64,000 nucleotides of DNA from Acholeplasmataceae bacterium (lineage in GTDB: Bacteria > Bacillota_I > Bacilli_A > ML615J-28 > CAG-313). Below the pieces are notes generated by a model. It saw only the letters and a list, made by a program, of their open reading frames with translations, was not told where the DNA came from and ran no database searches. How positions within the stretch are numbered: the stretch's first letter is position 1; every line of letters starts with the position of its first letter. The position numbers and the translations under genes are program-made. The stretch covers positions 3,845-67,844 of the forward strand of contig DUOG01000051.1 in assembly GCA_012838945.1 (NCBI GenBank), written 5' to 3'. This document shows positions 8,083 to 21,373 of this stretch, piece after piece.

Positions 8083-8854
8083 TTTATGCGTGCTACTTTG
8101 TATATTTGCTATCGCTGGTTGTAGTAAGCCAAAAGCTACCCTTCCTAGTGACTTTATTGGGGTAACTAAAGTTGAAGTGATTGATTATCTTCAAAATAAA
8201 AGTCATCAATTTAAATTTTTAGTCTTTACCTCTACTGACAATGAGTTAATTGATGGGTTTAAAAATAAATATATTGATAAGTTAGTAATTAATCGTTTGC
8301 CTCATATTTACTTAATTGATAATAATGAACAATACCTTAGTTCGATGTATGAAGTAACCGTTTCGGTAAAACCTATGGTTTGTCAGTTTCAAACGATAAA
8401 GTTATCTTTTAAAAATGGAGTTAAGGAGATTCCCTTTGGTTATTATGAAAACATTGATTTACCTCATTCAGAAAATCAAATTGATGTTAACTTATATTAT
8501 GATTTAAAATCAAACAATAATATCTATGACATGCAACTAATTATTCATAACTACCGGATGAGTGATGTTTACTTAAACCAAATAAACTTTGTTGATAAGG
8601 AAAATTCAGATCGGTTTGTTATGGCTCCCCTTACCGATAATATTATCATCTCTGATAATATCAAAATTATTTCCAACATTAAGTTAGAAGTCCCAAATAA
8701 CACCTTTTATAATAAAGGTTTAATCAACTTAAAGTTTGTTACTGATCATTTAGAATTTGAACAACCAGCGGTATATTTGGTTGATAATCTTCCAGATTAT
8801 TATCAATTAAAAGAATCGGGAATCGAATTAAATAGATTAATTATTCCAAGATAA
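8054..8854 (+). CDS. Lipoprotein, a paralog of the preceding gene
   Basis: Lipobox IAGCS. The mature N-terminus GCSKPKATLPSDFIGVTKVEV parallels the upstream gene. A TTG at 8054 gives a canonical signal peptide (KKSYRILISL...). Confidence 0.5.
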   Translation: MKKSYRILISLCVLLCIFAIAGCSKPKATLPSDFIGVTKVEVIDYLQNKSHQFKFLVFTSTDNELIDGFKNKYIDKLVINRLPHIYLIDNNEQYLSSMYEVTVSVKPMVCQFQTIKLSFKNGVKEIPFGYYENIDLPHSENQIDVNLYYDLKSNNNIYDMQLIIHNYRMSDVYLNQINFVDKENSDRFVMAPLTDNIIISDNIKIISNIKLEVPNNTFYNKGLINLKFVTDHLEFEQPAVYLVDNLPDYYQLKESGIELNRLIIPR

Positions 8855-8887: not shown

Positions 8888-10174
8888 TTATATAAGATAT
8901 TCTTTATATTTACTTACAAGTCGTTTAGGAAGGCGAGCCATCACTTTGATAGCATCAGGTTCATAATCGGTGGATATGACTTCAGTATTTTCTTTTAAGT
9001 AGGAATAGATTTCCCCTTTGGCATAAGGTAGTTTTAAGGTGTAAATGGCATAACTACCAAACAACTCATTTTCAATCCAATTAAGTAGTTCTGGATAACC
9101 TTCTTTAGTCTTGGCCGAAATGCGAAGGGCATTTTCATATTGAGATGGAATATAAAAGTAATCATCGATTAAATCAATTTTGTTAAAGACATATAAAGTC
9201 TTAACATTCTTGACCCCAATTTCAGTTAACACTTGATTAGTAGTTTGGATTTGTAAGTCTAAATAGGGACTGCTTGCATCTACCACATGGAGGATTAAAC
9301 TAGCTTCTTTAATTTCTTCTAAGGTTGATTTGAAAGATTCTACTAAATGGTGCGGTAGTTTACTAACGAAACCAACGGTATCGGTTAGTAAGAACTCATT
9401 ATTTGACGGTAGTTTTATCTTTCTAGTGGCAGTCTCTAACGTAGCAAATAACATATCTTCCGTATACACTTCTTTAATATCGTTTTCGGTAGTGAATTCT
9501 AAGATGGAATTTAATGTTGAAGATTTACCACTGTTAGTGTAACCTACTAAAGCAACTACTGGTACGCTTTGATCGTGGCGTTTCTTTCGGCTAGTTTCCC
9601 TAGCCTTTACTAGTTCTTTAAGTTCTTTCTTGGCTTTATCAATTTGACTTAAAATTCTACGACGGTCTAGTTCCAGTTTAGTTTCCCCTGCTCCACGACG
9701 GGCACCAGCACCCCCACCACCGCCTCCCCCAAGGCGTGATAGATAACGGCGACTTCCCACTAAGCGAGGCATCATATACTTCATAGCCGCAATCTCTACC
9801 TGGAGTTGGGCTTCTTTAGTTTTGGCCCGCCGATCAAAGATATCCAAGATAACCATAGTTCGGTCAATGATCCTAGTATCAAGAACAGATTCAATATTTT
9901 TTATTTGGGATGGTGTCATTTCATGATTAAAAATTACCACTTCAGCATCAGTAGCATCAACCATCATTTTTATTTCTTCAAGTTTTCCGCGATTTACGAA
10001 AAAGGCAGGATTAATGGTTTGAAGGTTTTGGGTAACCACTCCGACCACTTCCACTTGGCACGCCACACATAATGCTTTTAGTTCTTCTAATTCGTATAAG
10101 AATTCTTGGGTATTTCCCGTGTTGACGGAAACTAGTACGGCCTTTTCTAATGTTTCAAAATTCATAAGCGTCAC
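8888..10174 (-). CDS. hflX: GTPase HflX
   Basis: N-terminal HflX domain with a Gly-rich loop (GGGGGGAGARRGAGE); G1 GYTNSGKSS and G3 DTVGF. Confidence 0.85.
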   Translation of the reverse strand: MTLMNFETLEKAVLVSVNTGNTQEFLYELEELKALCVACQVEVVGVVTQNLQTINPAFFVNRGKLEEIKMMVDATDAEVVIFNHEMTPSQIKNIESVLDTRIIDRTMVILDIFDRRAKTKEAQLQVEIAAMKYMMPRLVGSRRYLSRLGGGGGGGAGARRGAGETKLELDRRRILSQIDKAKKELKELVKARETSRKKRHDQSVPVVALVGYTNSGKSSTLNSILEFTTENDIKEVYTEDMLFATLETATRKIKLPSNNEFLLTDTVGFVSKLPHHLVESFKSTLEEIKEASLILHVVDASSPYLDLQIQTTNQVLTEIGVKNVKTLYVFNKIDLIDDYFYIPSQYENALRISAKTKEGYPELLNWIENELFGSYAIYTLKLPYAKGEIYSYLKENTEVISTDYEPDAIKVMARLPKRLVSKYKEYLI

Positions 10175-10324
10175 TCATTTCTTGTAATATTTACCTTTAT
10201 TATTATACCACATAACTTTCAAATCCTATCAAATTCTGATTTAAAATATCAATAATTATTGGTTTGTTTTTGAAAACTTTTGATTTATCTTTCATATACT
10301 TGTAGTGGTGAAGGAGGTTAGGGG

Positions 10325-12301
10325 ATGCTCGATAATTTTAGTAAACAAGTTATTAGAATCATTGAAGAATCTAAAGTAATTGCGAGAAGCAAAGATAGTC
10401 AATTAGTGGGAACCGAACATTTGTTGCTTTCAATGATGACCATTGAGGATTCAATCTGTCATTTTTTATTATCAGAACAAAATATTAGCATAAGTGATAT
10501 TGAAGCAATCTTAGAAAAGTATGTTATCTTACGGAAAAGCGATTCAGAAGATATTATTTTCACCCGAAAATATCAAGAAATAATTCTTGATGCTGGCGAG
10601 TTAGCCTCTCGCCTCAATAGTAGTTTAGTTTTTGATGAACATCTTTTTTATTGTTTGTTAAAAGCTGATGCTGCGGTTGCTAAAGAGATCTTGCTGGAAT
10701 TAAAGATGAATATAAATGATTTGTTGGAAGATATAGAGGACATCTTTCAATTTAATCCCCCTGAAGAAGATTATGTCTATTCATTTTTAACTAACATTAG
10801 TGAACTTGTCAAAAAGCCCAATGCCAATAAATATATATCAAGGGGAAACCACTTAGAAAAGATTATTAATATTCTATCCAAAAAGCAAAAAAACAACCCA
10901 ATGTTAATTGGGAGTGCTGGAGTGGGAAAAAGTGCGATCGTAGAAGGATTGGCTCAAGAACTGATTAAACGGAACTACAAAGAGCCAATTTATCGCCTCG
11001 AGCTTGGAGCAATGATGGCCGGGACGAAATACCGCGGTGAACTAGAAGAAAAACTAATCAAAGCAATGAATTTTATTAAAGAAAAAAAAGCTATCCTTTT
11101 TATTGATGAAATTCACAACATCGTAGGCGCTGGTTCTAATGAGGGATCACTGGATATTGCTAATATATTAAAGCCTTACCTTGCTCGTTATGACATCAAG
11201 TGTATAGGTGCGACCACTTTAGAAGAGTATTATCGCTATATTGAAAAAGATAAGGCCTTGATGCGTCGTTTTCAAAATATCTTTATCGATGAACCAACCG
11301 AATCAGAAACCCTAATGATTTTAGAAGGGATAAAGGATTCCTATGAAGAATACCACGAGGTATTCTATCCTCAAGAGATCTTAAAAGGAATTGTTAAAAA
11401 GAGTGGGCGCTTTTTGATTAATCGTAAGTTTCCCGATAAAGCTATCGATATCTTAGATGAATTAGGAGCCCGAGCCCATGCTAAAAGCAAAACAGTAATT
11501 ACCTCCGAGATGCTGGGAGAAATCATTAAAGATATGGGAGGAATCAATCAACTCTCTAGTGAGGAACTAAGAAAGTTAGTCTTAAACTATCCCGGGTTAA
11601 AGAGTTATTATTTACGCTTTTTAAAAGGGGAAAGTGATGCGACCAATATTGTAGTGATTGAAGTAGAGGCAGGATTTAATCCTGAGCCGTTGTATCAAGA
11701 CTTGGATAAAGTCTTTAAACTACGAAAAGAAATGATCTTAGAGATAAATCTCGAAGAATACCTAGAGCACAATGCGATCAATAATCTGATTGGCTCACCC
11801 GCTGGTTATGTGGGGTATGAAACGGGAGGGATCTTATCAGAGCATCTGATAAAATATCCAATGTCAGTTGTTTACTTTAAGGGAATAAAACACGCTAATT
11901 TTGCGATTAGAAACTTTTTGAAACGAATGTTAAAGCAAAAGACAATTATGGATAACAAAGGAAGGACCATTTTATTATCCAATACTATCTTCATTTTAGA
12001 AAAAGATCAAAAACAACGAGTGATTAAAGGTTTCTTAAGCTCAGAGGTTAACGAATCAATTAGTGAAACTGAAGCAGATATTAGAATAGCAAAACCGGGA
12101 AAAAAGATGGGTCATGATAGACAAATGTTAAAATATATTGAGTTAGGATTAAAAGAAGGTTATAACATTATCTTTGATATTGAAGAGATTAAGAACCCCA
12201 AACAACTAGAACAAACCTTTTATCAAATCTTACTTGAGATACCAGGAACTTATCATATTTATGAAAAAAATAATCAATATCATTATCGCCATGACGGTTA
12301 A
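10325..12301 (+). CDS. Clp/Hsp100-family ATPase-like protein: two Clp_N repeats and an intact first AAA+ module, but the second module lacks a P-loop
   Basis: Clp_N repeats at the N-terminus. D1 has Walker A GSAGVGKSAIVEGL, Walker B ILFIDEIHN and sensor ARYDIKCIGATT. The D2 region keeps IGSPAGYVGYETGG and KGRTILLSNTIFI, but NIVVIEVEAG replaces the Walker A GxxGxGKT. Confidence 0.7.
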   Translation: MLDNFSKQVIRIIEESKVIARSKDSQLVGTEHLLLSMMTIEDSICHFLLSEQNISISDIEAILEKYVILRKSDSEDIIFTRKYQEIILDAGELASRLNSSLVFDEHLFYCLLKADAAVAKEILLELKMNINDLLEDIEDIFQFNPPEEDYVYSFLTNISELVKKPNANKYISRGNHLEKIINILSKKQKNNPMLIGSAGVGKSAIVEGLAQELIKRNYKEPIYRLELGAMMAGTKYRGELEEKLIKAMNFIKEKKAILFIDEIHNIVGAGSNEGSLDIANILKPYLARYDIKCIGATTLEEYYRYIEKDKALMRRFQNIFIDEPTESETLMILEGIKDSYEEYHEVFYPQEILKGIVKKSGRFLINRKFPDKAIDILDELGARAHAKSKTVITSEMLGEIIKDMGGINQLSSEELRKLVLNYPGLKSYYLRFLKGESDATNIVVIEVEAGFNPEPLYQDLDKVFKLRKEMILEINLEEYLEHNAINNLIGSPAGYVGYETGGILSEHLIKYPMSVVYFKGIKHANFAIRNFLKRMLKQKTIMDNKGRTILLSNTIFILEKDQKQRVIKGFLSSEVNESISETEADIRIAKPGKKMGHDRQMLKYIELGLKEGYNIIFDIEEIKNPKQLEQTFYQILLEIPGTYHIYEKNNQYHYRHDG

Positions 12302-12397
12302 AGTTGTGGCTTTTTATTATTAAGATTAGTGATAACTCAAATAATAAAATAAGGCATTTTTCCTTTAAAATAGCCTGACTTTATAATTTGGTATTTT

Positions 12398-12432
12398 TCA
12401 TTAACAAAATTGTCAAATCGTGGTATAATAAA
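12398..12432 (+). promoter_or_regulatory. Sigma-A-type promoter TTAACA-17 nt-TGgTATAAT
   Basis: It lies inside the 5' end of the maximal ORF, which implies the real start codon is at 12439 or 12451. Confidence 0.45.
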
Positions 12433-12450
12433 AGAGTAATGGTGATGATT

Positions 12451-15400
12451 ATGGGAAAAAACAAAGAACGAAAGTATTTATTAAAGTCAACCAATAAACA
12501 TTTATTAGATATTTTTGAACAAAATTACTATGTGGAATTAGGTTCAATCGATCTAGAAGTAATGAATGAGTTCTTGAGTGGTACGAGTATTCCTTTCAAT
12601 GAAATTGCTGATAAGATGATTTTGGTAGAAGGAACTGGTCGAATCACTAGTGACTTTAATTATGAACAAGAATATCAATTAAATTATCTTTTAGATTTTG
12701 TTAGATGGAATTCTTCCACCAAACTCTTTTTAACCTGTGGTATTATTAAATACTATAGTACGCTTAAACAAGAACTCTATGCACCTCTTTTGTTAATTCC
12801 CATTAAATTATATAAAAATCAAGATGGCAATTGGGAAGTTGTCAAGTGTGGCGAAATCTTTGAAAATGAATTATTAATGAAACGGTTACGTGAACTAACC
12901 ATTGAACCGCTTCCTAAAGCAGAAGATATTAGAAGACCATTTGACATTGACCACTACTCACAACGAGTAGCTAAAGCTTCCGGTTGTACTTTTGAAATCG
13001 GGAATTTTTTAACCTTTGCGAGGACGGAATATCCAGACCTTAACTTTATTCATGAAGAACTACTTGATACTAGTTCCTTTTTGGAATACTCTATTGCATA
13101 CATCTATGGACAGGCTTTATCAAAAACAAGATCCCTTTTACCATCAAACATCTATCAAAAGTATGTAATGGTAAAGGCTTCACAAAATGAAAGTTTTGCT
13201 TGTAGTGGGCGCTTAAATTCCGGTAAAACCAGTACCATTATCAATATTATTGGTGAAAGACTATTAAAAAATAAACAAGTATTATATGTCAATAGTGATC
13301 AAGTTGCGTTAGGAGAACTAGAATACCGCCTTCATGAGCTTGGTCTTGGAAAATATACCTTTAATTTGGTGAACCCATTAAAAACACCTAAAATTAGCCC
13401 AGTACGTAAAGACTATCATTTACGCGGGATGAAGAAAACTCTCGCCAAACTTTTAAGCAATCTACTATCTTTTGACCACCTGTTAGATCATAAATACTAT
13501 GGATATCGTTACCGTGAAATTGTGGAAAATCAATTATCTTTATATATCAATGGGTATGTTCATAAACCATTACCAATTGTGGATAAGTTGGAAAAGTTTG
13601 AAGTTGAAGGCATTTATGAAAAACTAAAAGCAGTTGAACGTGCCCTTTCGGTAATTGGTCCTTATGAAAAGTGTGGTTGGAGTACTTTAGAGCACTACTA
13701 TACTAGTAGTGATATTAAAGAAGTTGTTGAAGCAACCACAACTTTTGAAGCAATTCAAAATGAACTTTATACGGTATTTAATAAATTTAATGAACAATAT
13801 CATTTTAAACCAACCACAACAATTAAAGATGCTCATCGATTGATATATATACTAAAAGGTTTTAGTGATAATATTCCACCGTATAGTTGGCGAAAAATTA
13901 AAGATTTTAAACGTGCCACAAGAGAAATCAATTATCTAAAGGAACTTCAAGCAGAATATCAAAAACACCAAACTAAAATCCAAAACACCTATAATGGTGA
14001 TATTGAAAGTGTGGATGTTGAAGGTATCTTTAAGACTTTACTAGGGCCGTATTATGAAGTAACCGATAATATTTATCTTGATCGCATTTTATATAATTTA
14101 AAAAGTTTAAAAGAATTAACTAAAAGAGTAAATATTAATAAAAAGGTTATTAATGAATCATTAACTGCCTTAAAGGCTACCTTTAAGATTAAAGTTGTTG
14201 AAGACTATATGTATGATTTGTTGGCTGAAATAAATGAGTATTTAGATCAGCATGTTTGTCAGTTGCATTGGCTTACCCAATCATATGATAAGAATCCAAA
14301 TATCTTAGATGATTACAATTCCGATTATTTGAATTATTTAGAATACAATGATTTAGCTGTTCGGATTAAAAGTTACCTTAAAAAAGGTGCACCAGATGAT
14401 TATCAAACGCTTTATAGTTTGCTTACAACTCAAGATGATCAAAAGGTTCTTCAAAAGATTATCAACTTTAAACTATTAAAAGAAGATAACCTTTATCTTT
14501 TTAACTTGATTGCTTATCTTAAACGTTATTTAGAATTAGTTGAAATCTTAACTAATAAAATGAAAAAACACAAGTTTAAGACTTTTGATGACCTAGCAAA
14601 TAACTATCATCAATATAAAGCTTATATTGACTTACTTGATAAATCAACTAAAGAAAAGACGTTTATTAAGAAAATATTAGAAGACTATTTAACCAAACTT
14701 GAGAAGAAGAGGAATAGTGCTAAAGAAAGACTTTCCGCTTTTAGTAGAACTTACCTTGATAATTTAGATATTATCAAACAATTAAAGTATTATAATATTA
14801 ATATCAATACTCCTCAAGCTACGAAAAAGCTAACTATGCTCTATCATTTTGTTCAATATTTTAATCACATTTATAGTTTGAACCAAAAGTATCGTCCATT
14901 CTTTAAGAAGAATAACTTAGTAATTTTTGAGGATTATCAAGAGTTATTGAGGGATGTGAAAAATCATCATCGCCTTCAAAAAGCGATTGCTGTAAAGGAT
15001 AGTGATTACCAATATCTCTTTGGTGAATATTATCGTGGTTTTAAAACTGATATTATTACCCTGGAACGAATGATCGCTTATTTCCAACTTTTCTTACAAA
15101 TAATTTATGATCCAAAAGAGTTGGATGAAATGTTAATTCGTGACACTTTATTAAAGATTATCAGTAAACGCAAAACATTGGAAAAACTATATGAGAATTG
15201 GTATAGTTGTTATCGAAGATTCAACAAACTATTCCGTGATAGTAAATCCTATTACTTTGAAAATACCTTGTTAGAGAACATGGAGATAATTTCAGGGTAT
15301 GTTAATAAGTTAAACCTTCTTCCTGATGTCTTTACCGTCATTGAAAACATTGTGTTTATTAGGAAATATGGATTAGATAAACTTGCATTAGGAATTGAGA

Positions 15401-16680
15401 ATGGTACCTTCTTTGATAATTTGGGTGATCGCTTCCTAGCAACGGTTTATGAACATTATCAAAAGGCCATTGAAGATAAGTATCCAATCCTAAAGGATTT
15501 TGATAAGGTATTAACTGATGCTAAGTCTTATTCCATTTTGGAAAAAGAATGGTTTAATCAAAACATTGAATATTTTGCTGATAAAAAAAGCAATCCACGT
15601 GATCGTATTAAACATAAATTAAAGACAATTAGCACCTATAGTTGTGACCGGATCATAGATATTATTGGTCGAGACTATCAGGTATATTTAGCAGATGTCG
15701 ATATTTTCAACAGTAATATCGATCTTAAGCGATTTGATACCATTATCATTGATGATGCTCATTTGGAAAACTCTAATAAATATTATCGTTTAGATGAAAA
15801 TCTAAATCAGGTGATAATTTTCGGTGATAAAACCTTTACTAGTTCGGTATCGAATAACTTAATGCAAAGAATTATCCCTTCGGCTATTACGCCGTTAAAA
15901 TATCGTTATCAAAGCCTTAACAATTATTTTGATAACCAACTAGGAACAAATAATATTTATATCCCTAGATTTGATCAAAATGCTAAAATTAAGCGACTAG
16001 CAAACATCAGTGATTTAACGAAAGAAATAATTGAAGCAAGTACTTCAAAGACCATCAATATTGTTTTTGCGAGTAACAAGACAAAATTTAAATTTTACCG
16101 TGAGTTATTAAATGGTATTGATGACTATGAAAAAACTAAAAAGTTATTAAAGAATATCAATTTGATAAATGCACTTACTCATGATGCATTAAACGCTGAT
16201 GATGTTTATTTGTTGTTTGATGATTTCAAGACAATGGAAGCTGATGTTTTAGATAAAGTTCTAACTAATCATAATCAAGCATCCCAAAACTTCTATATGG
16301 TCTATTTTGAAGACATCATTGAAGAAAGAAATCAATACTTAGAAGCTCAGATGTTAAAATTACTGAAACGTAAAATCGCCTTCCTCCCTAGCTACAATCC
16401 AGTTATCAGTTATTTGGTGAATGAACTTCAACAACAAGGAGTGGAAGTTGAGTGGGGCGTTGGGGCTATTGATCTAATTGTTAAAGGTGCTAAACCATAT
16501 GGTTTTATCATAATTGGTTTGGATGAAGAGGATAAGTCTTTTATTGATATCTATCAATACTACTATCAAGAGTTTTTAAAACATGGGTGGAAGATCGAGT
16601 TTATATATGCTCCAGCACTAGCAAAAGATCCACAGGCAATAATAACAAAAGTAATAAAGACGGTGATGAAAAATGGATAA
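12451..16680 (+). CDS. Giant SF1 (Upf1-like) helicase-related protein with an ~850-aa helical insertion and a PD-(D/E)xK-like C-terminal domain
   Basis: N-terminal APLLLIPIKL region, recalled as DUF4011-like. Walker A GRLNSGKTSTII plus SDQVALGEL; Walker B IIIDDAH; motif III IIFGDKT; motif IV-like LKYRYQSL. The C-terminal AIDLIV...GLDEEDK resembles a restriction-endonuclease fold. The maximal ORF begins at 12388. Confidence 0.55.
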   Translation: MGKNKERKYLLKSTNKHLLDIFEQNYYVELGSIDLEVMNEFLSGTSIPFNEIADKMILVEGTGRITSDFNYEQEYQLNYLLDFVRWNSSTKLFLTCGIIKYYSTLKQELYAPLLLIPIKLYKNQDGNWEVVKCGEIFENELLMKRLRELTIEPLPKAEDIRRPFDIDHYSQRVAKASGCTFEIGNFLTFARTEYPDLNFIHEELLDTSSFLEYSIAYIYGQALSKTRSLLPSNIYQKYVMVKASQNESFACSGRLNSGKTSTIINIIGERLLKNKQVLYVNSDQVALGELEYRLHELGLGKYTFNLVNPLKTPKISPVRKDYHLRGMKKTLAKLLSNLLSFDHLLDHKYYGYRYREIVENQLSLYINGYVHKPLPIVDKLEKFEVEGIYEKLKAVERALSVIGPYEKCGWSTLEHYYTSSDIKEVVEATTTFEAIQNELYTVFNKFNEQYHFKPTTTIKDAHRLIYILKGFSDNIPPYSWRKIKDFKRATREINYLKELQAEYQKHQTKIQNTYNGDIESVDVEGIFKTLLGPYYEVTDNIYLDRILYNLKSLKELTKRVNINKKVINESLTALKATFKIKVVEDYMYDLLAEINEYLDQHVCQLHWLTQSYDKNPNILDDYNSDYLNYLEYNDLAVRIKSYLKKGAPDDYQTLYSLLTTQDDQKVLQKIINFKLLKEDNLYLFNLIAYLKRYLELVEILTNKMKKHKFKTFDDLANNYHQYKAYIDLLDKSTKEKTFIKKILEDYLTKLEKKRNSAKERLSAFSRTYLDNLDIIKQLKYYNININTPQATKKLTMLYHFVQYFNHIYSLNQKYRPFFKKNNLVIFEDYQELLRDVKNHHRLQKAIAVKDSDYQYLFGEYYRGFKTDIITLERMIAYFQLFLQIIYDPKELDEMLIRDTLLKIISKRKTLEKLYENWYSCYRRFNKLFRDSKSYYFENTLLENMEIISGYVNKLNLLPDVFTVIENIVFIRKYGLDKLALGIENGTFFDNLGDRFLATVYEHYQKAIEDKYPILKDFDKVLTDAKSYSILEKEWFNQNIEYFADKKSNPRDRIKHKLKTISTYSCDRIIDIIGRDYQVYLADVDIFNSNIDLKRFDTIIIDDAHLENSNKYYRLDENLNQVIIFGDKTFTSSVSNNLMQRIIPSAITPLKYRYQSLNNYFDNQLGTNNIYIPRFDQNAKIKRLANISDLTKEIIEASTSKTINIVFASNKTKFKFYRELLNGIDDYEKTKKLLKNINLINALTHDALNADDVYLLFDDFKTMEADVLDKVLTNHNQASQNFYMVYFEDIIEERNQYLEAQMLKLLKRKIAFLPSYNPVISYLVNELQQQGVEVEWGVGAIDLIVKGAKPYGFIIIGLDEEDKSFIDIYQYYYQEFLKHGWKIEFIYAPALAKDPQAIITKVIKTVMKNG

Positions 16681-17206
16681 ACGAAAAAGAAGCCCTAAAC
16701 GCGACTTAAGAGAAATAGTAAGAGATTTAAAAGAAAATGTTGATTCAATCGCAAAACTAAAAGTGAAATTAAAAAACATTGTGGAAAACGGTGGGGATTT
16801 AAATATTAAACTTTACAGTGGTCGCACCTTGATGCATTATGCTGTGAGGTATAATAGAAAGGGACTAATTAAATTATTTTATCGATTAGGAGTGAATGCG
16901 GAGATCTGTGATGATAATTACAATACCCCTTTGCATTATGCAATCCTAAAAGATAATTATCAAGCGGTAAAAGAATTAATCAAACTTAATGTTGATATTA
17001 ATTTACCAGCGGAGCTTGAACAAACTCCTTTGCATATGGCAGTTTTAAAAGGAAATAAAGATTTAGTAAAACTACTAGTTGAAAATGGAGCTGACATTAG
17101 TCTAGTTGATGAAAAAAACTTAACCGCCTTAGACTATGCCTATGATGAAAATGATAAAGATATAATCAATTACTTAAATAGTAAAATGAAATTAATAAAT
17201 GGATAA
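16673..17206 (+). CDS. Ankyrin-repeat protein with about four ANK repeats
   Basis: Repeats TPLHYAI, TPLHMAV and TALDYA, spaced about 33 aa apart, with the usual ANK hydrophobic pattern. The ATG overlaps the stop of the giant gene (ATGGATAA). Confidence 0.75.
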   Translation: MDKRKRSPKRDLREIVRDLKENVDSIAKLKVKLKNIVENGGDLNIKLYSGRTLMHYAVRYNRKGLIKLFYRLGVNAEICDDNYNTPLHYAILKDNYQAVKELIKLNVDINLPAELEQTPLHMAVLKGNKDLVKLLVENGADISLVDEKNLTALDYAYDENDKDIINYLNSKMKLING

Positions 17207-17221
17207 ATAGGATGTGGAATT

Positions 17222-18028
17222 ATGGATATTTTTAAAGATATTTGGTCATATTTTAGTAAGTATACTGGCGGATTTGAAGCCTATGGAATCATTAGACTAG
17301 TTATTGATTTATTACTTATTTCTTTTCTTACCTTTTCAGCTATCATCTTCTTAGCCAGAAAAACTAAACAATCTGCGATGAGAAAGATTCTCATTACCTT
17401 TATTGTGGTGATTTTGATAGTATTTTTGATGGATCTTCGAATCATGCAAGAATTACTTAGGGAATCAATTTCCATACTGATCATCTTGTTCATTGTGGTT
17501 TATGCTCAAGAGATTAAAACCTTCCTAGGTTTTTATGTTCGTTCGAAAAACCATAAGGGATTGCTTAACAGTGAAGAAAAGAAAGATCGTTTAATTAACA
17601 CCTTAATTTCAACCGTAAGTTATTTATCGAGACGCTCCATTGGTGCTATTATTACGATCGAAAAAGATAATTCTTTAAATGCATATATTGAGAAAGCTAT
17701 CTATTTAGATGCGGAAGTTTCCTTTGAACTCTTTTCTACCATCTTTACTCCGGGCACCCCACTTCATGATGGTGCGGTAATTGTTCGGGGAAACCGAGCA
17801 ATGTGTGCCGGCGCTTTCTTTCCATCGAGTGATAAGTATGATATTCCTAAATCCCTTGGTTCCCGTCACCGGGCTGCTCTGGGGATTAGTGAAGTCAGCG
17901 ATGCTTTCACAATTGTCGTATCTGAACAAACTGGTAATATCTCTACTACGATTGATGGAGTAATAAATATTAATATTTCATTGGATGACTTAAGAATGTC
18001 ACTAAAACAAAACATTCTTTTAAGATAA
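17222..18028 (+). CDS. cdaA: Diadenylate cyclase CdaA (c-di-AMP synthase)
   Basis: Three N-terminal TM helices and a DAC domain with TPGTPLHDGAVIV, RHRAALG and VVSEQTG. Confidence 0.85.
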   Translation: MDIFKDIWSYFSKYTGGFEAYGIIRLVIDLLLISFLTFSAIIFLARKTKQSAMRKILITFIVVILIVFLMDLRIMQELLRESISILIILFIVVYAQEIKTFLGFYVRSKNHKGLLNSEEKKDRLINTLISTVSYLSRRSIGAIITIEKDNSLNAYIEKAIYLDAEVSFELFSTIFTPGTPLHDGAVIVRGNRAMCAGAFFPSSDKYDIPKSLGSRHRAALGISEVSDAFTIVVSEQTGNISTTIDGVININISLDDLRMSLKQNILLR

Positions 18029-18037
18029 GGGGGTCCT

Positions 18038-19333
18038 ATGACGCAAATCTTAGATTTTTTGAGTGAAAATAAATATCAGATTGAATATCTTTATTATGCG
18101 GGGTTAGTGACCCTTATTGGCTTGATCATCTTTAAAGCAAGCCTTTTTAAGAAAATATTTAGTTATGATGTGATTTTTCTCTTAATCGTGGTGAGTTACT
18201 TTGGTTTAAATTTTTTGTGGAAAACCGATTACAATCCAACCATTTATAGTGTTTTAGCTATTGTCCTTGTCATCATTCAATTAATAAAGACAACTCACTA
18301 CTATCAAGAAGAAGATAAAATGAAGGTCAGTGCCTTAAATCATATCAAAAACGCGGATTATGATTATTTTGTTACAGTTGATGACAAAGATAAAATGATT
18401 GATTTTAGTAATAGTATTGCTCAAAAGTTTGGCATGGGAGAAAGTGATCTCCGAAAAAGTAAGTTTTGGGATCTCTTTGTTAGTCGCTTTGGCATCGTTG
18501 GGATTAATGAAGAACCAGTTGATGAAGAACGACTAGCCATCTTAAAAAGAGAATATGCCAAAAAGGTTAAGTTTAATATTAGTTATCAATTTCGGGTTCA
18601 AGTAAGAAATATTGATAATGAAATTGAATACTATCAATTCTTAGTAAAGCCAATCTATAATGGTGAACGTTACTTAGGAAAGAATATTTTCATTAATCGT
18701 AATCGCTGGCAAATCATTAATGAGTTGAATACTAGCTTGGCTAATATGATTGATCAATATGAAAAAGCCAAACAACAAAGTCATATCTGGTTAAGTATGG
18801 TTCCCCAAGTATTGCTTTACTATGACTATCACTCTCAGACTTATATCATAACCGAAACCTTTAAAAGGGTTTTAAATACTCAAAAGAGTGAACTTACTGA
18901 AACCGAGTTTTTGGATTTAATCCATCCGGAGGATTTAGAAAAATATAAATCAGATTTAATGAATATCAATAGTCAAGAAGTCACCAGTATCATCTTTAGA
19001 TTAAAGATTAATGGTAAGTACCGTAAAATTAGTGAAGAGGCAATGCTGATGGAACCACAAAGTGGTTTAGTATCAGTTGTTAAGACCTTGCCGGTAAAAG
19101 AGGAAAATGCTGATAACGTTGAGTATATTAAAAGCTTAACTACTCCAGCTAGTCATAGTATTAATACCCAAGCAATTAAAACAGCTAGTACGACCATGGC
19201 TGCCCCAAAAGAAGATATTAAAGAAATTGAAACTAGTGATGACTTAAAAAAATTGGCTGAAAATATGCAGAATAAAGATGTTGACCGTTTGGAATCACTC
19301 CTTAATTCAGCCATCAAGAAGCGTGATTCATAA
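18038..19333 (+). CDS. Membrane-anchored protein with two PAS-like domains, at the position where CdaR (YbbR) usually sits
   Basis: Three TM helices, then PAS-like segments (DYFVTVDDKDKMIDFSNSIAQKFGM...; LIHPEDLEKYKSDL...). I recognised no YbbR repeats. Confidence 0.45.
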   Translation: MTQILDFLSENKYQIEYLYYAGLVTLIGLIIFKASLFKKIFSYDVIFLLIVVSYFGLNFLWKTDYNPTIYSVLAIVLVIIQLIKTTHYYQEEDKMKVSALNHIKNADYDYFVTVDDKDKMIDFSNSIAQKFGMGESDLRKSKFWDLFVSRFGIVGINEEPVDEERLAILKREYAKKVKFNISYQFRVQVRNIDNEIEYYQFLVKPIYNGERYLGKNIFINRNRWQIINELNTSLANMIDQYEKAKQQSHIWLSMVPQVLLYYDYHSQTYIITETFKRVLNTQKSELTETEFLDLIHPEDLEKYKSDLMNINSQEVTSIIFRLKINGKYRKISEEAMLMEPQSGLVSVVKTLPVKEENADNVEYIKSLTTPASHSINTQAIKTASTTMAAPKEDIKEIETSDDLKKLAENMQNKDVDRLESLLNSAIKKRDS

Positions 19334-20007
19334 TGTTTGATGTTGTTATTGTGATGGCGGGGACTGGGGTTCGTACCGGTCTTAAAACAAATAAAGTTTT
19401 ATATCCAATCAAAGGTATTGAGGTTTTTATTTATAGCGTTCGTGCCTTCTTACAAGTAGCTGGAATTAACAACTTAATTTTAGTTATAAGTCCCAGTGAT
19501 GCCAACCTTGTTGAAGAAATCCTTAAAAAATATAATTTGTTTGATAAAGTTATCATGATCTCAGGCGGAAAAACCCGTGCTGAAAGTGTACGAAACGGTT
19601 TGCTGGAAACAGGGGCTGACAAAGTTTTAATTCATGATGCGGCCAGACCACTAATAACCGCCACTGATATTAAAAAGGTGGTTGATGCCCTTGACAAATG
19701 GGATGCGGTAACCCTAGTTAATCCAATCTATGATACGGTTAAAATAGTTCAAAATCAGAAAGTGTTAAAAACTATTAATCGTGAACTGGTTAAAAGAGTG
19801 ATTACTCCTCAAGGTTTAAAGAAGAAGGTTATCACACAGATCTTAAATCCAATTCAGTGTGATGATGCTATCACTGATGAAATGGTTCTTTTAGAAGAAA
19901 AATTTGAAGTATATACGATTGAAACTAATAATCCAAGTGTTAAGTTTACTACTAAAGAAGATCTAGATTTAATAGAATATTATTTAACTAAAAGGGAGGA
20001 AAACTAA
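19333..20007 (+). CDS. ispD: 2-C-methyl-D-erythritol 4-phosphate cytidylyltransferase
   Basis: VIVMAGTGVRTG nucleotide-binding loop, IHDAARPL and VITPQG. It is coupled to ispF. Confidence 0.75.
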   Translation: MFDVVIVMAGTGVRTGLKTNKVLYPIKGIEVFIYSVRAFLQVAGINNLILVISPSDANLVEEILKKYNLFDKVIMISGGKTRAESVRNGLLETGADKVLIHDAARPLITATDIKKVVDALDKWDAVTLVNPIYDTVKIVQNQKVLKTINRELVKRVITPQGLKKKVITQILNPIQCDDAITDEMVLLEEKFEVYTIETNNPSVKFTTKEDLDLIEYYLTKREEN

Positions 20008-20483
20008 TGTATCGAATTGGTCATTCCTTTGATTTTCACCCCCTAGTACCAGATCGTCTCTTAATTTTAGGAGGAATAACCATTCCCTTTGAAAAAGGAT
20101 TGGCTGGTCACAGTGATGCTGATGTAGTTTTACATGTGGTCGCTGAGAGCATCTTGGGAGCCCTAGGTGCAGGAGACCTCGGCACTCACTTTCCTGATAA
20201 TGATCCTAAATATAAGGGGCAGTCTTCTGACTTCTTTGTCAAGGAAAGCATAAAATTAGCTAAAGAAGCCGGGTTTGTAGTTAATAATATAGATGTTATG
20301 GTCTACATTGAAAAGCCTTCCTTAAAAGAATATAAACCTTTTATTAAATCCCGGATTGCATCGCTTTTAGAAGTAGATGAAACATTGGTTAATGTCAAAG
20401 CAACAACCATGGAGAAGAAAGGCATTATTGGTGAGGGCGTAGGTATCGCCGCTGAAGCCATAGTCCTTCTTAAACAAAAGTAA
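20007..20483 (+). CDS. ispF: 2-C-methyl-D-erythritol 2,4-cyclodiphosphate synthase
   Basis: RIGHSFDFH, GHSDADV and LGALGAGDLGTHFPD. Confidence 0.9.
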   Translation: MYRIGHSFDFHPLVPDRLLILGGITIPFEKGLAGHSDADVVLHVVAESILGALGAGDLGTHFPDNDPKYKGQSSDFFVKESIKLAKEAGFVVNNIDVMVYIEKPSLKEYKPFIKSRIASLLEVDETLVNVKATTMEKKGIIGEGVGIAAEAIVLLKQK

Positions 20484-20527
20484 TTAATACCACCACTTTA
20501 GGCATAAGATGAAGTGGTGGTTTTCTT

Positions 20528-21205
20528 ATGAAGAAAAGGTTTAAAAAGTTCTTCATTCTCGCATTAATTTTTTTAATTCCCTTATTTTTAATCAGTTTTT
20601 CTGATCGTTACTTTGGGGAACGAGCGGGGGTATATATAAAAGAAAGAGCCCAGATGTATAGTATGCAAATCATTAATGATGCTGTTTTAGAAGTGGTGGG
20701 GCCTAGTATATCAATGGATGACATCTTGATAATGGAAAAGGACACTACTGGCAAAATTATTAGTGTCTTAGTCAATACCCAACAAGTAAATCAAATCTTA
20801 GGGAAGGTTGGAAAAAGTGTAGAAGGTGGAGTTCAGGCGATTGAGGAAGGTAAAATCTCTAGTTTGAGCATCCCCCTCGGGGTTTTAATTAGTAGTACAA
20901 TTTTGGCCGATCGCGGTCCTGAAGTAAAGGTAAAGGTCCGACCAATTGGGTCCTATAAGGTTGATGTGATTTCTGAGGTTAGTGGTTATGGTATAAACAA
21001 TAGTTTAGTATTGGTCTATATCTTAGTAAAAATTGAACTGGAAGCATTGATTCCTTTGAGGATTGTCCCGGTAGTGACCGAGTCAAAAGTTGTCTTAATC
21101 TCACAAATAATTAAAGGGGAGATACCCAAATATTATTATGCTGCGGGGACATATTTGCCCAATCCTCCTCCTGAGTCTGATTTTGGCGTTATTCCTAACA
21201 GTTAA
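20528..21205 (+). CDS. Sporulation protein YunB-like
   Basis: N-terminal TM helix; IPLGVLISSTILADRGPEVKVKVRPIGS matches my recollection of the YunB family core. Confidence 0.45.
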   Translation: MKKRFKKFFILALIFLIPLFLISFSDRYFGERAGVYIKERAQMYSMQIINDAVLEVVGPSISMDDILIMEKDTTGKIISVLVNTQQVNQILGKVGKSVEGGVQAIEEGKISSLSIPLGVLISSTILADRGPEVKVKVRPIGSYKVDVISEVSGYGINNSLVLVYILVKIELEALIPLRIVPVVTESKVVLISQIIKGEIPKYYYAAGTYLPNPPPESDFGVIPNS

Positions 21206-21373
21206 ATTGTTTACAATATTCTTACCATAAAAAGGAAAGATGTGATATAATAATATAAATAATGGTTCTTAATTAAAAATGGTTGACGTAGGTTTAATGA
21301 AAATTGCATATTAAAACATCGATTTTGAAAATTGTAGTATAATAATTATAAATAATAGAAAGGTCGATGAAAT

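What the first reader, a model, noticed from the sequence alone, without database searches (positions are those of the whole stretch)
12388..17206. A giant SF1/Upf1-like helicase-related protein with an ~850-aa insertion and a nuclease-like C-terminus is translationally coupled to an ankyrin-repeat protein
The 1430-aa protein has Walker A (GRLNSGKTST), SDQVALGEL, Walker B (IIIDDAH), motif III (FGDKT) and a motif-IV-like LKYRYQSL. Motifs V/VI are not recognisable. Walker A and Walker B are separated by about 850 aa of K/N/Y-rich helical sequence. The N-terminus has a DUF4011-like APLLLIPIKL region, and the C-terminus looks like a PD-(D/E)xK fold. Its stop overlaps the start (ATGGATAA) of a four-repeat ankyrin protein. 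Ankyrin partners are rare in Firmicutes. A helicase/nuclease plus a protein-protein interaction module resembles the architecture of defence or DNA-surveillance systems, but this pairing is not one I recognise.
Basis: partly seen in the sequence, partly recalled or inferred. Interest (0 to 1): 0.6.

Follow-up and report, generated by a model that had tools for sequence, protein, structure and literature searches.

The report
Degenerate helicase–ankyrin pair beside CdaA
The giant gene is a worn-down relative of an anti-phage helicase-nuclease that, with a small ankyrin protein, has been inherited vertically next to the housekeeping c-di-AMP synthase gene in a whole clade of uncultured gut Bacilli; this points to a chromosomal housekeeping or regulatory job rather than a mobile defence system.

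Summary
The likely start is ATG 12451, giving 1409 aa rather than 1430. The roughly 840-aa gap between Walker A and Walker B is a trait of the whole DUF4011 superfamily. The C-terminal nuclease fold lacks its catalytic residues.

Profile-profile comparison shows the protein is collinear with canonical DUF4011/AAA_11/AAA_12/REase_MTES_1575 proteins, the Hhe / ProA / PDC-S37 anti-phage type. It keeps only the Q motif, Walker A and a DD Walker B. Motif III is truncated, motifs V and VI and the nuclease active site are lost, and there is no DUF3320 tail.

About 80 full-length family representatives exist, all named "hypothetical protein" where a name is given. In more than 50 species-level loci the gene is intact. 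Its stop lies within 20 nt of an orthologous ~180-aa ankyrin gene, which is missing in only one locus. A CdaA-type diadenylate cyclase gene follows directly. The giant protein has co-diverged with these neighbours. The three genes stay together where the flanks differ, including one locus with cdaA-glmM-glmS and no cdaR, and in a sub-clade whose ATP site is also dead.

My best reading is a domesticated pseudo-helicase/pseudo-nuclease plus ankyrin adaptor acting as a nucleotide-dependent scaffold or regulator of CdaA, analogous to RadA-DisA. The identity and inheritance are well supported. The link to c-di-AMP is inferred from gene linkage only.

The parts
12288..12310 (+). Terminator-like hairpin plus T-run at the end of the clpC-like gene. 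It marks the upstream boundary of the transcription unit.
   Evidence: 8-bp stem, 4 GC pairs, TTTTTATTAT tail.
12401..12429 (+). Sigma-70-like promoter TTAACA-17-TATAAT with an extended -10 TG. It is the best site in 10000-21500.
Evidence: 11 of 12 matches.
12451..16680 (+). Giant CDS (1409 aa): a degenerate DUF4011-type SF1B ATPase with an inactivated REase-like C-terminus.
12451..13050 (+). N-terminal DUF4011-like domain (aa 1-200). Invariant residues are Y27, E29, G31, P112, L115 and P117 (the APLLLIPIKL motif).
   Evidence: Pfam DUF4011 at 26.6 bits on the fragment; invariant columns; hhalign against the canonical family; AF2 model with pLDDT 74 and no clear PDB match for this part.
13132..13410 (+). 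First half of RecA-like domain 1A, carrying the Q motif (Q236) and Walker A (G253-T260; nt 13207-13230).
13429..15666 (+). All-helical region of about 745 aa (aa 327-1072) inserted in domain 1A. Its first half is homologous to the equivalent region of ProA / PDC-S37 / canonical DUF4011 proteins.
   Evidence: AF2 DSSP shows helices only, mostly with pLDDT 80-92. PADLOC and NCBIfam matches cover aa 229-771. hhalign. Conserved residues E384, L392, W480, F928 and E1031.
15667..15897 (+). Second half of domain 1A: Walker B FDTIIIDD (aa 1095-1102; nt 15733-15756) and the truncated motif III QVIIFGD.
   Evidence: D1101 and D1102 in 39/39, Q1120 in 38/39, G1125 in 39/39. Aligned to the canonical FDvvIFDEASQ / VVVGDxKQLPPT.
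15898..16365 (+). Degenerate RecA-like domain 2A. The motif IV arginine is kept (R1152, 35/39); motifs V and VI are lost.
   Evidence: hhalign mapping; column statistics; alpha/beta secondary structure in the model; Foldseek two-RecA helicase hits.
16366..16677 (+). C-terminal restriction-endonuclease-like fold (alpha-beta-beta-beta-alpha-beta) without a conserved catalytic D / (D/E)xK.
   Evidence: Aligned to REase_MTES_1575 of the canonical family. D1341 occurs in only 24/39 sequences and the ECDG equivalent is hydrophobic. Topology.
16673..17206 (+). Ankyrin-repeat protein (177 aa): a basic N-terminal helix plus about four ANK repeats. Its start overlaps the giant's stop by 8 nt.
   Evidence: An orthologue is present in 52 loci, with a start codon -20 to +6 nt from the giant's stop.
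17222..18028 (+). CdaA-type diadenylate cyclase (268 aa): three N-terminal TM helices plus a DAC domain with DGA and RHR motifs.
   Evidence: Pfam DAC at 1.4e-35. TM scan and sequence. It is always the next gene after ank.
18038..19333 (+). Membrane protein with PAS-like domains (431 aa) in the same operon. It is conserved only among closer relatives.
19333..20483 (+). ispD and ispF, the distal genes of the same tightly packed transcription unit.
   Evidence: No terminator-like site lies between 12310 and 20870 on the + strand.

Best explanation
**What it is (shown).** Gene 12451-16680 encodes a lineage-specific, vertically inherited offshoot of the DUF4011 superfamily of SF1B (Upf1-like) helicase / Vsr-type nuclease fusion proteins. 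That superfamily includes the anti-phage proteins Hhe and ProA and the PADLOC candidate PDC-S37. The whole architecture is kept: the DUF4011 N-domain, a RecA 1A domain split by a long helical region, a RecA 2A domain and a REase fold. Of the catalytic machinery, only the ATP-binding part survives: the Q motif, Walker A, and a Walker B with DD in place of DE. The motif III Gln, motifs V and VI (including the arginine finger) and the nuclease active site are lost, and there is no DUF3320 tail.

**Gene linkage (shown).** The gene is translationally coupled to an orthologous ~180-aa ankyrin-repeat gene. That gene is followed directly by the housekeeping membrane diadenylate cyclase gene cdaA, in one operon driven by a promoter at 12401-12429. 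This giant-ank-cdaA triad is the unit that stays constant across a clade of uncultured Bacilli, in records labelled Bacilli, Acholeplasmatales, Mollicutes or 'Staphylococcus sp. CAG:324'.

**How it most likely works (inferred).**
1. The giant protein no longer unwinds or cuts nucleic acid.
2. It acts as an ATP-binding switch or scaffold. It probably still contacts nucleic acid through its DUF4011, RecA and dead-nuclease domains.
3. The ankyrin protein, made in fixed proportion to it, serves as the protein-protein adaptor.
4. Together they bind and modulate CdaA, setting c-di-AMP synthesis according to a cytoplasmic cue.

This would be analogous to the helicase RadA, which is encoded immediately upstream of the cyclase DisA and inhibits it. 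It would also parallel CdaR and GlmM, which are encoded in the canonical cdaA operon and regulate CdaA.
For: **Homology and degeneration.**
- hhalign of 39 family members against 16 canonical DUF4011 proteins gives probability 99.9-100% and is collinear over about 1140-1180 columns.
- Other similarity hits: PDC-S37 1e-26; ProA 5e-25 and Hhe 5e-5; IGHMBP2 3.6e-9, but only through the Walker A half.
- Column statistics: Walker A and Walker B DD in 39/39, Q1120 in 38/39, G1125 in 39/39, R1152 in 35/39. The motif V/VI positions and the REase D/E positions are not conserved.
- The same pattern holds in 82 representatives clustered at 50% identity: GK[TS] in 78/82 and DD in 75/82.
- The AF2 model (pLDDT 79) shows a split RecA 1A, an all-helical region of about 745 aa, a 2A-like alpha/beta domain and an alpha-beta-beta-beta-alpha-beta C-terminus. 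Foldseek finds two-RecA helicases such as Setx, Aquarius and IGHMBP2.

**Vertical inheritance and selection.**
- Synteny hflX / clpC / giant-ank-DAC-...-ispD-ispF is kept down to 21-24% identity.
- ORFs of 1406-1499 aa are intact in 49 loci.
- The giant's pairwise identities correlate with those of DAC (rho 0.82), ank (0.75) and ispF (0.60). None of 500 permutations reached these values.

**The triad.**
- Ank is present in 52 loci, with a start codon -20 to +6 nt from the giant's stop.
- DAC is always the next gene.
- The triad persists where the flanks differ:
  - L064: RNR | giant-ank-DAC-MGS-GGDEF.
  - L066: giant-ank-DAC-ispDF.
  - L068: giant-ank-DAC-glmM-glmS, with no cdaR.
- No YbbR/CdaR Pfam hit occurs in any annotated locus.

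**Precedent.** CdaR and GlmM are co-operonic with cdaA, form a complex with CdaA and regulate it. RadA, encoded just upstream of disA, binds and inhibits DisA (PMC8573169).

**ATPase-independent role.** The sub-clade P0180/P0183/P0186/P0194 has lost the Q motif, Walker A and Walker B, yet P0180 keeps ank and DAC next to it.
Against: - No experiment or interaction prediction links the giant or ank protein to CdaA. The linkage could be historical synteny, since much of the surrounding region is also syntenic.
- Only three loci with rearranged flanks were examined.
- One species (L025) has lost ank while keeping giant-cdaA.
- The Walker A and DD Walker B motifs are strictly kept in most members, so real ATPase or even translocase activity cannot be excluded from sequence alone.
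- The giant protein evolves fast (mean pairwise identity 27%, against 44-53% for its neighbours). This is also what an arms-race gene would show.
- I could not check whether cdaR, radA or disA exist elsewhere in these genomes.
Confidence: 0.5

Rival explanations
1. The pair is a housekeeping DNA-transaction factor (repair, recombination or nucleoid organisation) that took over the radA slot between clpC and ispD. The ankyrin protein is its partner. Adjacency to cdaA is inherited gene order with no functional meaning for c-di-AMP.
For: - In the window and most close relatives the pair sits between clpC and ispD/ispF. In B. subtilis this position holds radA-disA. The gene order is from my own knowledge; the clpC operon is reported to encode DNA-repair proteins (Krüger et al. 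1997, listed in PMC4786428), and radA lies immediately upstream of disA (PMC8573169).
- The ancestral family is made of DNA helicase-nucleases.
- The long helical region gives weak Foldseek matches to SMC, MukB and JetC.
- Canonical DUF4011 genes can be core chromosomal genes, for example in P. aeruginosa (PMC10250203) and mycoplasmas.
Against: - The translocation motifs and the nuclease site are degenerate, and the ATP site is lost in one sub-clade.
- clpC and ispDF are not always adjacent, whereas cdaA always is.
- The SMC-like matches have low probability (0.2-0.4) and very low TM-scores.
Confidence: 0.25
2. The pair is still an anti-phage system of the Hhe / ProA / PDC-S37 type that has become fixed in the chromosome. 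The ankyrin protein acts as sensor or regulator of the helicase-like ATPase.
For: - The closest named families are anti-phage: ProA 5e-25, Hhe 5e-5 and PDC-S37 1e-26. Hhe is a DUF4011 defence protein.
- The ank protein gives weak hits to ankyrin-containing PADLOC candidates (PDC-M72A 3.8e-19).
- The giant protein evolves faster than its neighbours.
Against: - Scores are far below the family cut-offs: 87 against 1500 bits, and 21 against 2000 bits.
- The nuclease catalytic residues and helicase motifs V and VI are lost.
- There is no defence-island or mobile-element context. The gene lies inside a housekeeping operon that is syntenic over more than 50 species and co-diverges with its neighbours.
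- The ankyrin hits reflect generic ANK-repeat similarity.
Confidence: 0.12
3. The giant ORF is a decaying remnant with no function, kept open by chance or by polarity constraints on the downstream genes ank and cdaA.
For: - Catalytic motifs are degenerate.
- Mean identity is low (27%).
- Two loci (L040, L055) have the ORF split in two.
Against: - An open frame of more than 1400 codons in AT-rich DNA is kept in 49 of 51 full-length loci and in about 80 representatives at 50% identity, with a narrow length range.
- Twenty-one columns are invariant and 26 more are at least 90% conserved across 39 sequences, including the P-loop and residues in the N-domain and the helical region.
- The AF2 model is confident (pLDDT 79).
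Confidence: 0.02

Closest known systems
Hhe (HheA, 'Gao_Hhe'; NCBIfam NF042953) and the wider DUF4011 / AAA_11 / AAA_12 / REase_MTES_1575 / DUF3320 proteins
   Same: - The domain order is collinear: DUF4011 N-domain, Q motif and Walker A, long helical region inside RecA 1A, Walker B, RecA 2A, Vsr/REase-like fold (hhalign probability 99.9-100%).
- The signature motifs match: APLLLIP, SSQ/QKY and GxxGxGK[ST].
   Different: - Walker B is DD rather than DE.
- KQLPPT of motif III, QGDERD of motif V and GGERRLNVAITRAR of motif VI are lost.
- The nuclease ECDG/RDRDR residues are lost and there is no DUF3320 tail.
- The HMM score is 20.9 bits against a cut-off of 2000.
- The gene is a core, syntenic operon gene paired with ank and cdaA, not a single-gene system in a defence island.
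ProA (NCBIfam NF058533 'anti-phage protein ProA') / PADLOC candidate PDC-S37
   Same: These give the best sequence-profile matches: 5.4e-25 and 1e-26. They cover aa 229-771, which is Walker A plus the first ~450 aa of the helical region.
   Different: - Only about 40% of the protein matches.
- The score is 87 bits against an equivalog cut-off of 1500.
- The profiles are 1903 and 1550 positions long, against 1409 aa here.
- I found no paper describing ProA in the library, so its mechanism cannot be compared.
Upf1-like SF1B helicases (IGHMBP2, Upf1, Sen1/Setx, Aquarius, Dna2)
   Same: - Two RecA-like lobes with accessory insertions in 1A.
- The Walker A half hits IGHMBP2 at 3.6e-9.
   Different: - The second half of the core (motifs II-VI) is undetectable by sequence against PDB, whereas the canonical DUF4011 set hits both halves.
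- There is no motif VI arginine finger.
RadA(Sms)-DisA module of Firmicutes
   Same: - A helicase-type P-loop protein is encoded immediately upstream of a DAC-domain c-di-AMP synthase; RadA binds and inhibits DisA (PMC8573169).
- The operon position is the same, between clpC and ispD, in many loci (the B. subtilis gene order is from my own knowledge).
   Different: - There is no homology: the giant is SF1B/DUF4011 rather than RecA/Lon-like RadA, and no KNRFG motif occurs in a credible gene.
- The cyclase is membrane-bound CdaA, not the DNA-scanning DisA.
- An ankyrin protein sits between the two genes.
CdaR (YbbR) and GlmM, the operon-encoded regulators of CdaA
   Same: They are co-transcribed with cdaA (PMC8573169). 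In L068 the triad sits at the head of cdaA-glmM-glmS, exactly where the canonical operon begins.
   Different: - They are unrelated proteins.
- Giant and ank are encoded upstream of cdaA rather than downstream.
- No YbbR domain is found in any annotated locus.
- Any regulation of CdaA by giant/ank is untested.

Membership tests
Hhe anti-phage protein (NCBIfam NF042953 equivalog) | Whole-protein HMM score at or above the curated cut-off (2000 bits). | tested here: not met
   20.9 bits, E 4.8e-5, only aa 239-306 matched.
Hhe / canonical DUF4011 helicase-nucleases | N-terminal DUF4011 domain. | tested here: met
   Pfam PF13195 at 22.3 bits (cut-off 22.2) on the whole protein and 26.6 bits on aa 1-230. 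hhalign aligns the N-domain, and P112, L115 and P117 are invariant.
Hhe / canonical DUF4011 helicase-nucleases | Complete SF1 helicase core (AAA_11 + AAA_12, motifs I-VI). | tested here: not met
   No AAA_11 or AAA_12 Pfam hit. The motif III KQLPPT, motif V QGDERD and motif VI RRLNVAxTRAR equivalents are absent or unconserved.
Hhe / canonical DUF4011 helicase-nucleases | Vsr/REase_MTES_1575 nuclease with catalytic acidic residues. | tested here: not met
   The fold is retained (alpha-beta-beta-beta-alpha-beta; aligned). D1341 occurs in only 24/39 sequences, and the E and D of ECDG are replaced by hydrophobic or variable residues.
Hhe / canonical DUF4011 helicase-nucleases | Defence-island or variable genomic context, and a phage-resistance phenotype. 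| tested here: not met
   The context is a syntenic housekeeping operon in more than 50 species, with co-divergence. The phenotype itself cannot be tested with these tools.
ProA (NCBIfam NF058533) / PADLOC PDC-S37 | Whole-protein HMM score at or above the cut-off (1500 bits), with full-length coverage. | tested here: not met
   87.1 bits; aa 229-766 against profile positions 647-1207 of 1903. PDC-S37: 91 bits; aa 238-771 against 300-827 of 1550.
SF1B Upf1-like helicase | ATP-binding site: Q motif, Walker A GxxxxGK[ST], Walker B. | tested here: met
   Q236, G253, G258 and K259 are invariant and T260 is in 37/39. Walker B is present in 39/39 but as DD rather than DE. In the wider family, GK[TS] is in 78/82 and DD in 75/82.
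SF1B Upf1-like helicase | Coupling and translocation motifs III (GDxxQ), V and VI (arginine finger). | tested here: not met
   Only QxxxxG[DE] of motif III and R1152 of motif IV remain. The motif V and VI columns are unconserved.
SF1B Upf1-like helicase | Two RecA-like domains. | tested here: met
   AF2 model with pLDDT 79. Foldseek probability 0.97-1.0 to Setx, Aquarius, IGHMBP2 and DEAD-box cores over 300-430 columns.
Ankyrin-repeat proteins | Tandem ANK repeats detected by the Pfam Ank models. | tested here: met
   Ank_4 1.1e-24, Ank_2 1e-23 and Ank 3.3e-23. The orthologous family has 13 invariant columns.
CdaA-type diadenylate cyclase (neighbour gene 17222-18028) | N-terminal TM helices plus a DAC domain with DGA and RHR motifs. 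| tested here: met
   DAC 1.4e-35. TM segments in aa 18-104, plus 'HDGAV' and 'SRHRAA' in the sequence. glmM-glmS lies downstream in L068.
Known CdaA regulators (CdaR/YbbR, GlmM) | Homology to YbbR-domain or phosphoglucosamine-mutase proteins. | tested here: not met
   No such Pfam hit for giant, ank or X431. A functional analogy (binding and regulating CdaA) cannot be tested with these tools.
RadA/Sms | RecA-like ATPase with a KNRFG motif and a Lon-like C-domain. | tested here: not met
   No credible KNRFG-containing gene in the window or loci. The giant protein belongs to the SF1B/DUF4011 lineage.

The most novel reading that the evidence does not exclude
An immune-type helicase-nuclease (Hhe/ProA-like) was domesticated in an ancestor of a large clade of uncultured gut and anaerobic-digester Bacilli. 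It became a catalytically degenerate ATP switch or scaffold. With a dedicated ankyrin adaptor, it forms a previously unknown class of cytoplasmic regulator of the essential c-di-AMP synthase CdaA. In this role it stands in for CdaR and possibly feeds nucleic-acid or nucleoid status into c-di-AMP signalling, as RadA-DisA does elsewhere.
Probability: 0.3. Interest if true: 0.8.

Novelty: new variant of a known kind. Interest (0 to 1): 0.6.

Why it matters
- **Defence-gene exaptation.** If the model is right, this would be a clear bacterial case of an anti-phage-type helicase-nuclease turned into a pseudo-enzyme with a housekeeping role.
- **c-di-AMP control.** It would also be a new way of controlling the essential second messenger c-di-AMP in a clade that appears to lack the canonical cdaR next to cdaA.
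- **Annotation.** The family has about 80 clusters at 50% identity and hundreds of contigs from gut metagenomes. Every named member is called 'hypothetical protein', so even the descriptive result improves annotation.
- **A caution for defence finders.** PADLOC and NCBIfam similarity to PDC-S37 or ProA does not make a gene a defence system.
- **Testability.** The sub-clade that has also lost the ATP site is a natural experiment for an ATP-independent scaffold role.

Tried and rejected
1. **Single-sequence Pfam scans** of the whole protein and of C-terminal fragments, with E up to 10, found no AAA_11, AAA_12, DUF3320 or REase model. Only profile-profile comparison revealed these domains.
2. **The search for homologous proteins** with the 6- and 39-sequence alignments returned the same candidate set and no new family members. 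The census came from the exhaustive representative search and the genome scan.
I used six family sequences plus 16 canonical homologues instead.
4. **The first representative search** failed because the profile exceeded 1200 positions. It was repeated from aa 240.
5. **Fold searches.**
   - Foldseek on the whole 1200-aa model is diffuse. The SMC/MukB/JetC-like hits for the helical region have low probability and I do not rely on them.
6. **RadA near the locus.** The KNRFG hits are all in non-genic or unrelated frames.
7. **X431 as a CdaR equivalent.** It has no YbbR hit. It is a TM + PAS-like protein, replaced in distant relatives by GGDEF-like proteins.
8. **Literature.** I found nothing on ProA, on ankyrin + CdaA, or on this family.
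9. **ClpC-adaptor idea for ank.** I dropped it because the triad persists where clpC is not adjacent.

Full report
**1. The observation**

The window has an ORF at 12388..16680 (+) and an ORF at 16673..17206 (+). The junction reads AAAAATGGATAA, so the ankyrin ATG (16673) overlaps the giant's TAA (16678-16680) by 8 nt.

The start needs correcting. The strongest sigma-70-like site in 10-21.5 kb is TTAACA-17-(TG)TATAAT at 12401-12429. It lies downstream of the TTG at 12388. A terminator-like hairpin at 12288-12310 closes the preceding clpC-like gene. Homologues begin at the equivalent of ATG 12451, with MGKNKE.... The protein is therefore about 1409 aa.

**2. Single-sequence domain searches**

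| Library | Hit | Score | Region |
|---|---|---|---|
| Pfam | DUF4011 | 22.3 bits (cut-off 22.2); 26.6 bits on aa 1-230 | aa 88-143 |
| Pfam | AAA_11, AAA_12, DUF3320, REase | none, even at E = 10 | – |
| PADLOC | PDC-S37 | 1e-26 | aa 238-771 |
| NCBIfam | anti-phage protein ProA | 5.4e-25; 87 bits (cut-off 1500) | aa 229-766 |
| NCBIfam | Hhe | 4.8e-5; 21 bits (cut-off 2000) | aa 239-306 |

The downstream 177-aa protein is a clear ankyrin-repeat protein, with Ank_4, Ank_2 and Ank at 1e-23 to 1e-24.

**3. What the giant protein is**

I compared an alignment of 39 family members (A2) with 16 canonical DUF4011/AAA_11/AAA_12/REase_MTES_1575/DUF3320 proteins (A3). The result was probability 99.9-100% and one collinear alignment of about 1140-1180 columns. 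Three points follow.

- **The gap between Walker A and Walker B is a family trait.** In P0007 Walker A is at 682-690 and Walker B at 1320-1324. The first half of the region is homologous. That is why ProA and PDC-S37 match aa 229-771.
- **The motif mapping shows what has been lost**:

| Canonical family | This family |
|---|---|
| FDvvIFDEASQ (Walker B) | FDLVIIDDAHL |
| VVVGDxKQLPPT (motif III) | QVIIFGD, with KQLPPT gone |
| WHYRSRHESL (motif IV) | xxRYxxM, arginine kept in 35/39 |
| QGDERD (motif V) | no conserved counterpart |
| GGERRLNVAITRAR (motif VI) | no conserved counterpart |
| IDLAV...GIECDG...RDRDR...GW (nuclease) | D in only 24/39, then a hydrophobic GIiIxG, then Y.YYY...GW |

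- **The DUF3320 tail is absent.**

What is strictly kept is the ATP-binding set. Q236, G253, G258, K259, D1101, D1102 and G1125 are invariant in 39/39 sequences and Q1120 is in 38/39.

PDB searches agree. The family profile reaches IGHMBP2 (3.6e-9) and Sen1 only through the Walker A half. The canonical set hits IGHMBP2, Sen1, Dna2 and Upf1 through both halves.

An AF2 model of aa 210-1409 has mean pLDDT 79. It shows:
- RecA 1A split by an all-helical region of about 745 aa (aa ~327-1072);
- a 2A-like alpha/beta domain;
- a C-terminal alpha-beta-beta-beta-alpha-beta unit, which is the restriction-endonuclease core topology.

Foldseek finds two-RecA helicases (Setx, Aquarius, IGHMBP2, DEAD-box) with probability of about 1. 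The DUF4011 N-domain model (pLDDT 74) has no convincing PDB match beyond the attached RecA half.

The protein is thus a pseudo-nuclease with a degenerate helicase core that probably still binds ATP.

**4. Distribution, inheritance and gene linkage**

*Size of the family.*
- The word-indexed search found only five relatives at 24-67% identity.
- The genome-collection scan found 51 loci. All are MAGs labelled Bacilli, 'Staphylococcus sp. CAG:324', Mollicutes, Acholeplasmatales, Anaeroplasma, Tenericutes or Erysipelotrichaceae, plus a few with evidently mislabelled titles. The best is only 29% identical to the window protein.
- The exhaustive search of 1.84 billion representatives found 102 hits at E <= 1e-30.
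- About 80 of these are full-length (1330-1511 aa) end-to-end matches.
- Below about 1e-25 the hits are canonical DUF4011 proteins that match only the first ~300 profile positions.
- Named members in public databases are all 'hypothetical protein', and the partner is 'ankyrin repeat domain-containing protein'.

*Synteny.* In every Logan, JGI or ENA locus with gene calls the order is hflX, a short clpC, giant, ank, DAC, X, ispD/ispF, yunB, nifU.... tblastn across all loci shows giant -> ank -> DAC -> ... -> ispD -> ispF wherever the DNA is present.

*Integrity.* The giant ORF is intact (1406-1499 aa) in 49 loci. It is split in two ORFs in L040 and L055.

*Coupling.* In 52 loci a start codon in the ank frame lies -20 to +6 nt from the giant's stop, and 39 of these overlap it. 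Only L025 lacks ank; there the giant gene is followed directly by DAC.

*Co-divergence.* Pairwise identities of the giant protein correlate with those of DAC (Spearman 0.82), ank (0.75) and ispF (0.60). None of 500 permutations reached these values, and DAC against ispF gives 0.54. This fits vertical co-inheritance and not horizontal spread. The giant protein is the fastest-evolving of the set, with mean identity 27% against 44-53%.

The rest of the window is ordinary chromosome: oxaloacetate decarboxylase, GroEL, a class-I Glx-tRNA synthetase, PcrA, LigA, UvrA and a P-type ATPase.

**5. The conserved unit is a triad with cdaA**

The gene after ank is a CdaA-type cyclase. It has three N-terminal TM helices and a DAC domain (1.4e-35) with DGA and RHR motifs.

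More distant family members show different flanks but the same three genes:

| Locus (giant) | Gene order |
|---|---|
| L064 (P0180) | RNR \| giant - ank(193) - DAC - MGS - GGDEF ... ispD - ispF |
| L066 (P0165) | giant - ank(185) - DAC - ispDF |
| L068 (P0171) | dus, RNR \| giant - ank(202) - DAC - glmM - glmS |

The small proteins are orthologues of the window's ank (hhalign probability 99.9%; HMM 1e-51 to 1e-69).

L068 carries the canonical Firmicute cdaA operon without cdaR. In the canonical operon, cdaR and glmM lie downstream of cdaA, and their products form a complex with CdaA and regulate it (PMC8573169). No YbbR/CdaR domain appears in any annotated locus.

The same paper records that radA lies immediately upstream of disA and that the RadA helicase binds and inhibits that cyclase. 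In the window and its close relatives the giant-ank-cdaA block sits between clpC and ispD. In B. subtilis that position holds radA-disA. The gene order is from my own knowledge; the clpC operon is reported to encode DNA-repair proteins (Krüger 1997, cited in PMC4786428).

**6. A natural experiment**

Four representatives (P0180, P0183, P0186, P0194) have lost the Q motif, carry AKQGT[KR]K in place of GxxGxGKT, and have DG in place of DD. P0180 still has ank and DAC beside it. In that sub-clade whatever is selected cannot need ATP. This favours a scaffold or regulatory role over an enzymatic one.

**7. Mechanism proposed**

*Shown:*
- homology to DUF4011 helicase-nucleases;
- loss of the nuclease site and of motifs V and VI;
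- retention of the ATP-binding site in most members;
- translational coupling to ank;
- invariant adjacency to cdaA;
- vertical inheritance.

*Inferred:*
- the giant protein acts as an ATP-dependent switch or scaffold, possibly still binding nucleic acid;
- ank acts as an adaptor made in fixed proportion;
- the pair modulates CdaA activity, or localises it, in response to a cytoplasmic cue.

I put about 0.9 on the descriptive part and about 0.3-0.35 on the CdaA-regulator part.

*Rivals:*
- A DNA-transaction housekeeping factor whose adjacency to cdaA is historical (0.25).
- A still-active Hhe/ProA-like defence gene fixed in the chromosome (0.12). Against this stand the dead nuclease, scores far below the family cut-offs and the core syntenic context.
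- A decaying remnant (0.02), excluded by the conservation of an open frame of more than 1400 codons in about 50 species.

**8. Comparison with known families and novelty**

The protein does not qualify as Hhe, ProA or PDC-S37. It falls below their HMM cut-offs and fails their defining catalytic features. It is, however, clearly derived from that superfamily.

Canonical DUF4011 genes can themselves be core chromosomal genes, as in P. aeruginosa (PMC10250203) and mycoplasmas. I found no description of a DUF4011-type protein paired with an ankyrin protein and CdaA.

I rate it a new variant of a known kind. The most novel reading still open is a new class of CdaA regulator domesticated from an immune helicase-nuclease.

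Noticed in passing
window 10325-12301 (+); also L003 4328-6301 and L007 8000-9940: The clpC-like gene upstream is unusually short: 658 aa here and 643-658 aa in relatives. It has Clp_N, AAA, AAA_lid_9 and only part of AAA_2 (aa 456-559), with no C-terminal D2-small domain hit. No ctsR, mcsA or mcsB lies upstream; hflX sits on the opposite strand instead.
   Followed up: partly
window 18038-19333 (+); L007 15809-17380; L064 13886-15439; L068 15851-16531: The gene after cdaA encodes a ~3-TM protein with PAS-like domains (PAS_3 2.5e-6). In distant relatives this position, or one nearby, holds 517-523-aa proteins with a GGDEF hit (faint in L007, clear in L064). A c-di-GMP-type signalling protein therefore tends to accompany the c-di-AMP cyclase.
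   Followed up: partly
L068 9138-13060: In this distant relative cdaA is followed directly by glmM and glmS with no cdaR between them. This is the canonical Firmicute cdaA operon minus its YbbR regulator, with giant-ank at its head.
   Followed up: partly
L025 7968-13315: This is the only locus in which the ankyrin gene is absent. A longer giant ORF (1499 aa) ends 2 nt before the DAC gene's start.
   Followed up: yes
L040 7980-12300 and L055 7995-12210: The giant gene is split into two overlapping open frames (866+584 and 775+638 codons). This could be a frameshift, a pseudogene or an assembly error; I did not resolve which.
   Followed up: no
proteins P0180, P0183, P0186, P0194 (locus L064 8001-12002): This sub-clade of 1331-1359-aa family members has lost the Q motif, Walker A (AKQGT[KR]K) and Walker B (DG). 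P0180 keeps the ank and DAC neighbours.
   Followed up: partly
window 7228-8082 and 8036-8854 (+): Two tandem ORFs (284 and 272 aa) have signal-peptide-like N-termini and lipobox-like Cys (LIYGC / IAGC). They have no Pfam hit on record and are poorly conserved (52-57% identity where neighbours are 78-87%). They look like paralogous lipoproteins.
   Followed up: no
window 12001-16000: GC drops to 0.29-0.31 over the giant gene, against 0.33-0.37 in the flanks. The gene is inherited vertically, so this probably reflects its K/N/Y/I-rich helical composition rather than foreign origin.
   Followed up: no
window 20528-21205 (+); L004 21717-22091: Sporulation-associated families (Spore_YunB here, Spore_YtfJ in L004) occur in genomes whose records are labelled Acholeplasmatales, Mollicutes or Tenericutes. 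This suggests the labels are loose, or that the clade keeps remnants of the sporulation programme.
   Followed up: no
window 29847-31430 (+): A 527-aa ORF with no Pfam hit at E <= 1e-5 sits in an otherwise well-annotated housekeeping stretch (GroEL ... Glx-tRNA synthetase, PcrA, LigA, UvrA).
   Followed up: no
literature: PMC12228374, PMC8249566, PMC10250203: Canonical DUF4011 proteins are chromosomal genes in Mycoplasma hominis (disrupted by an ICE insertion) and M. bovis (183 kDa). In P. aeruginosa one is a universally present gene flanking a defence hotspot. Core-genome residence of this superfamily therefore has precedents.
   Followed up: partly
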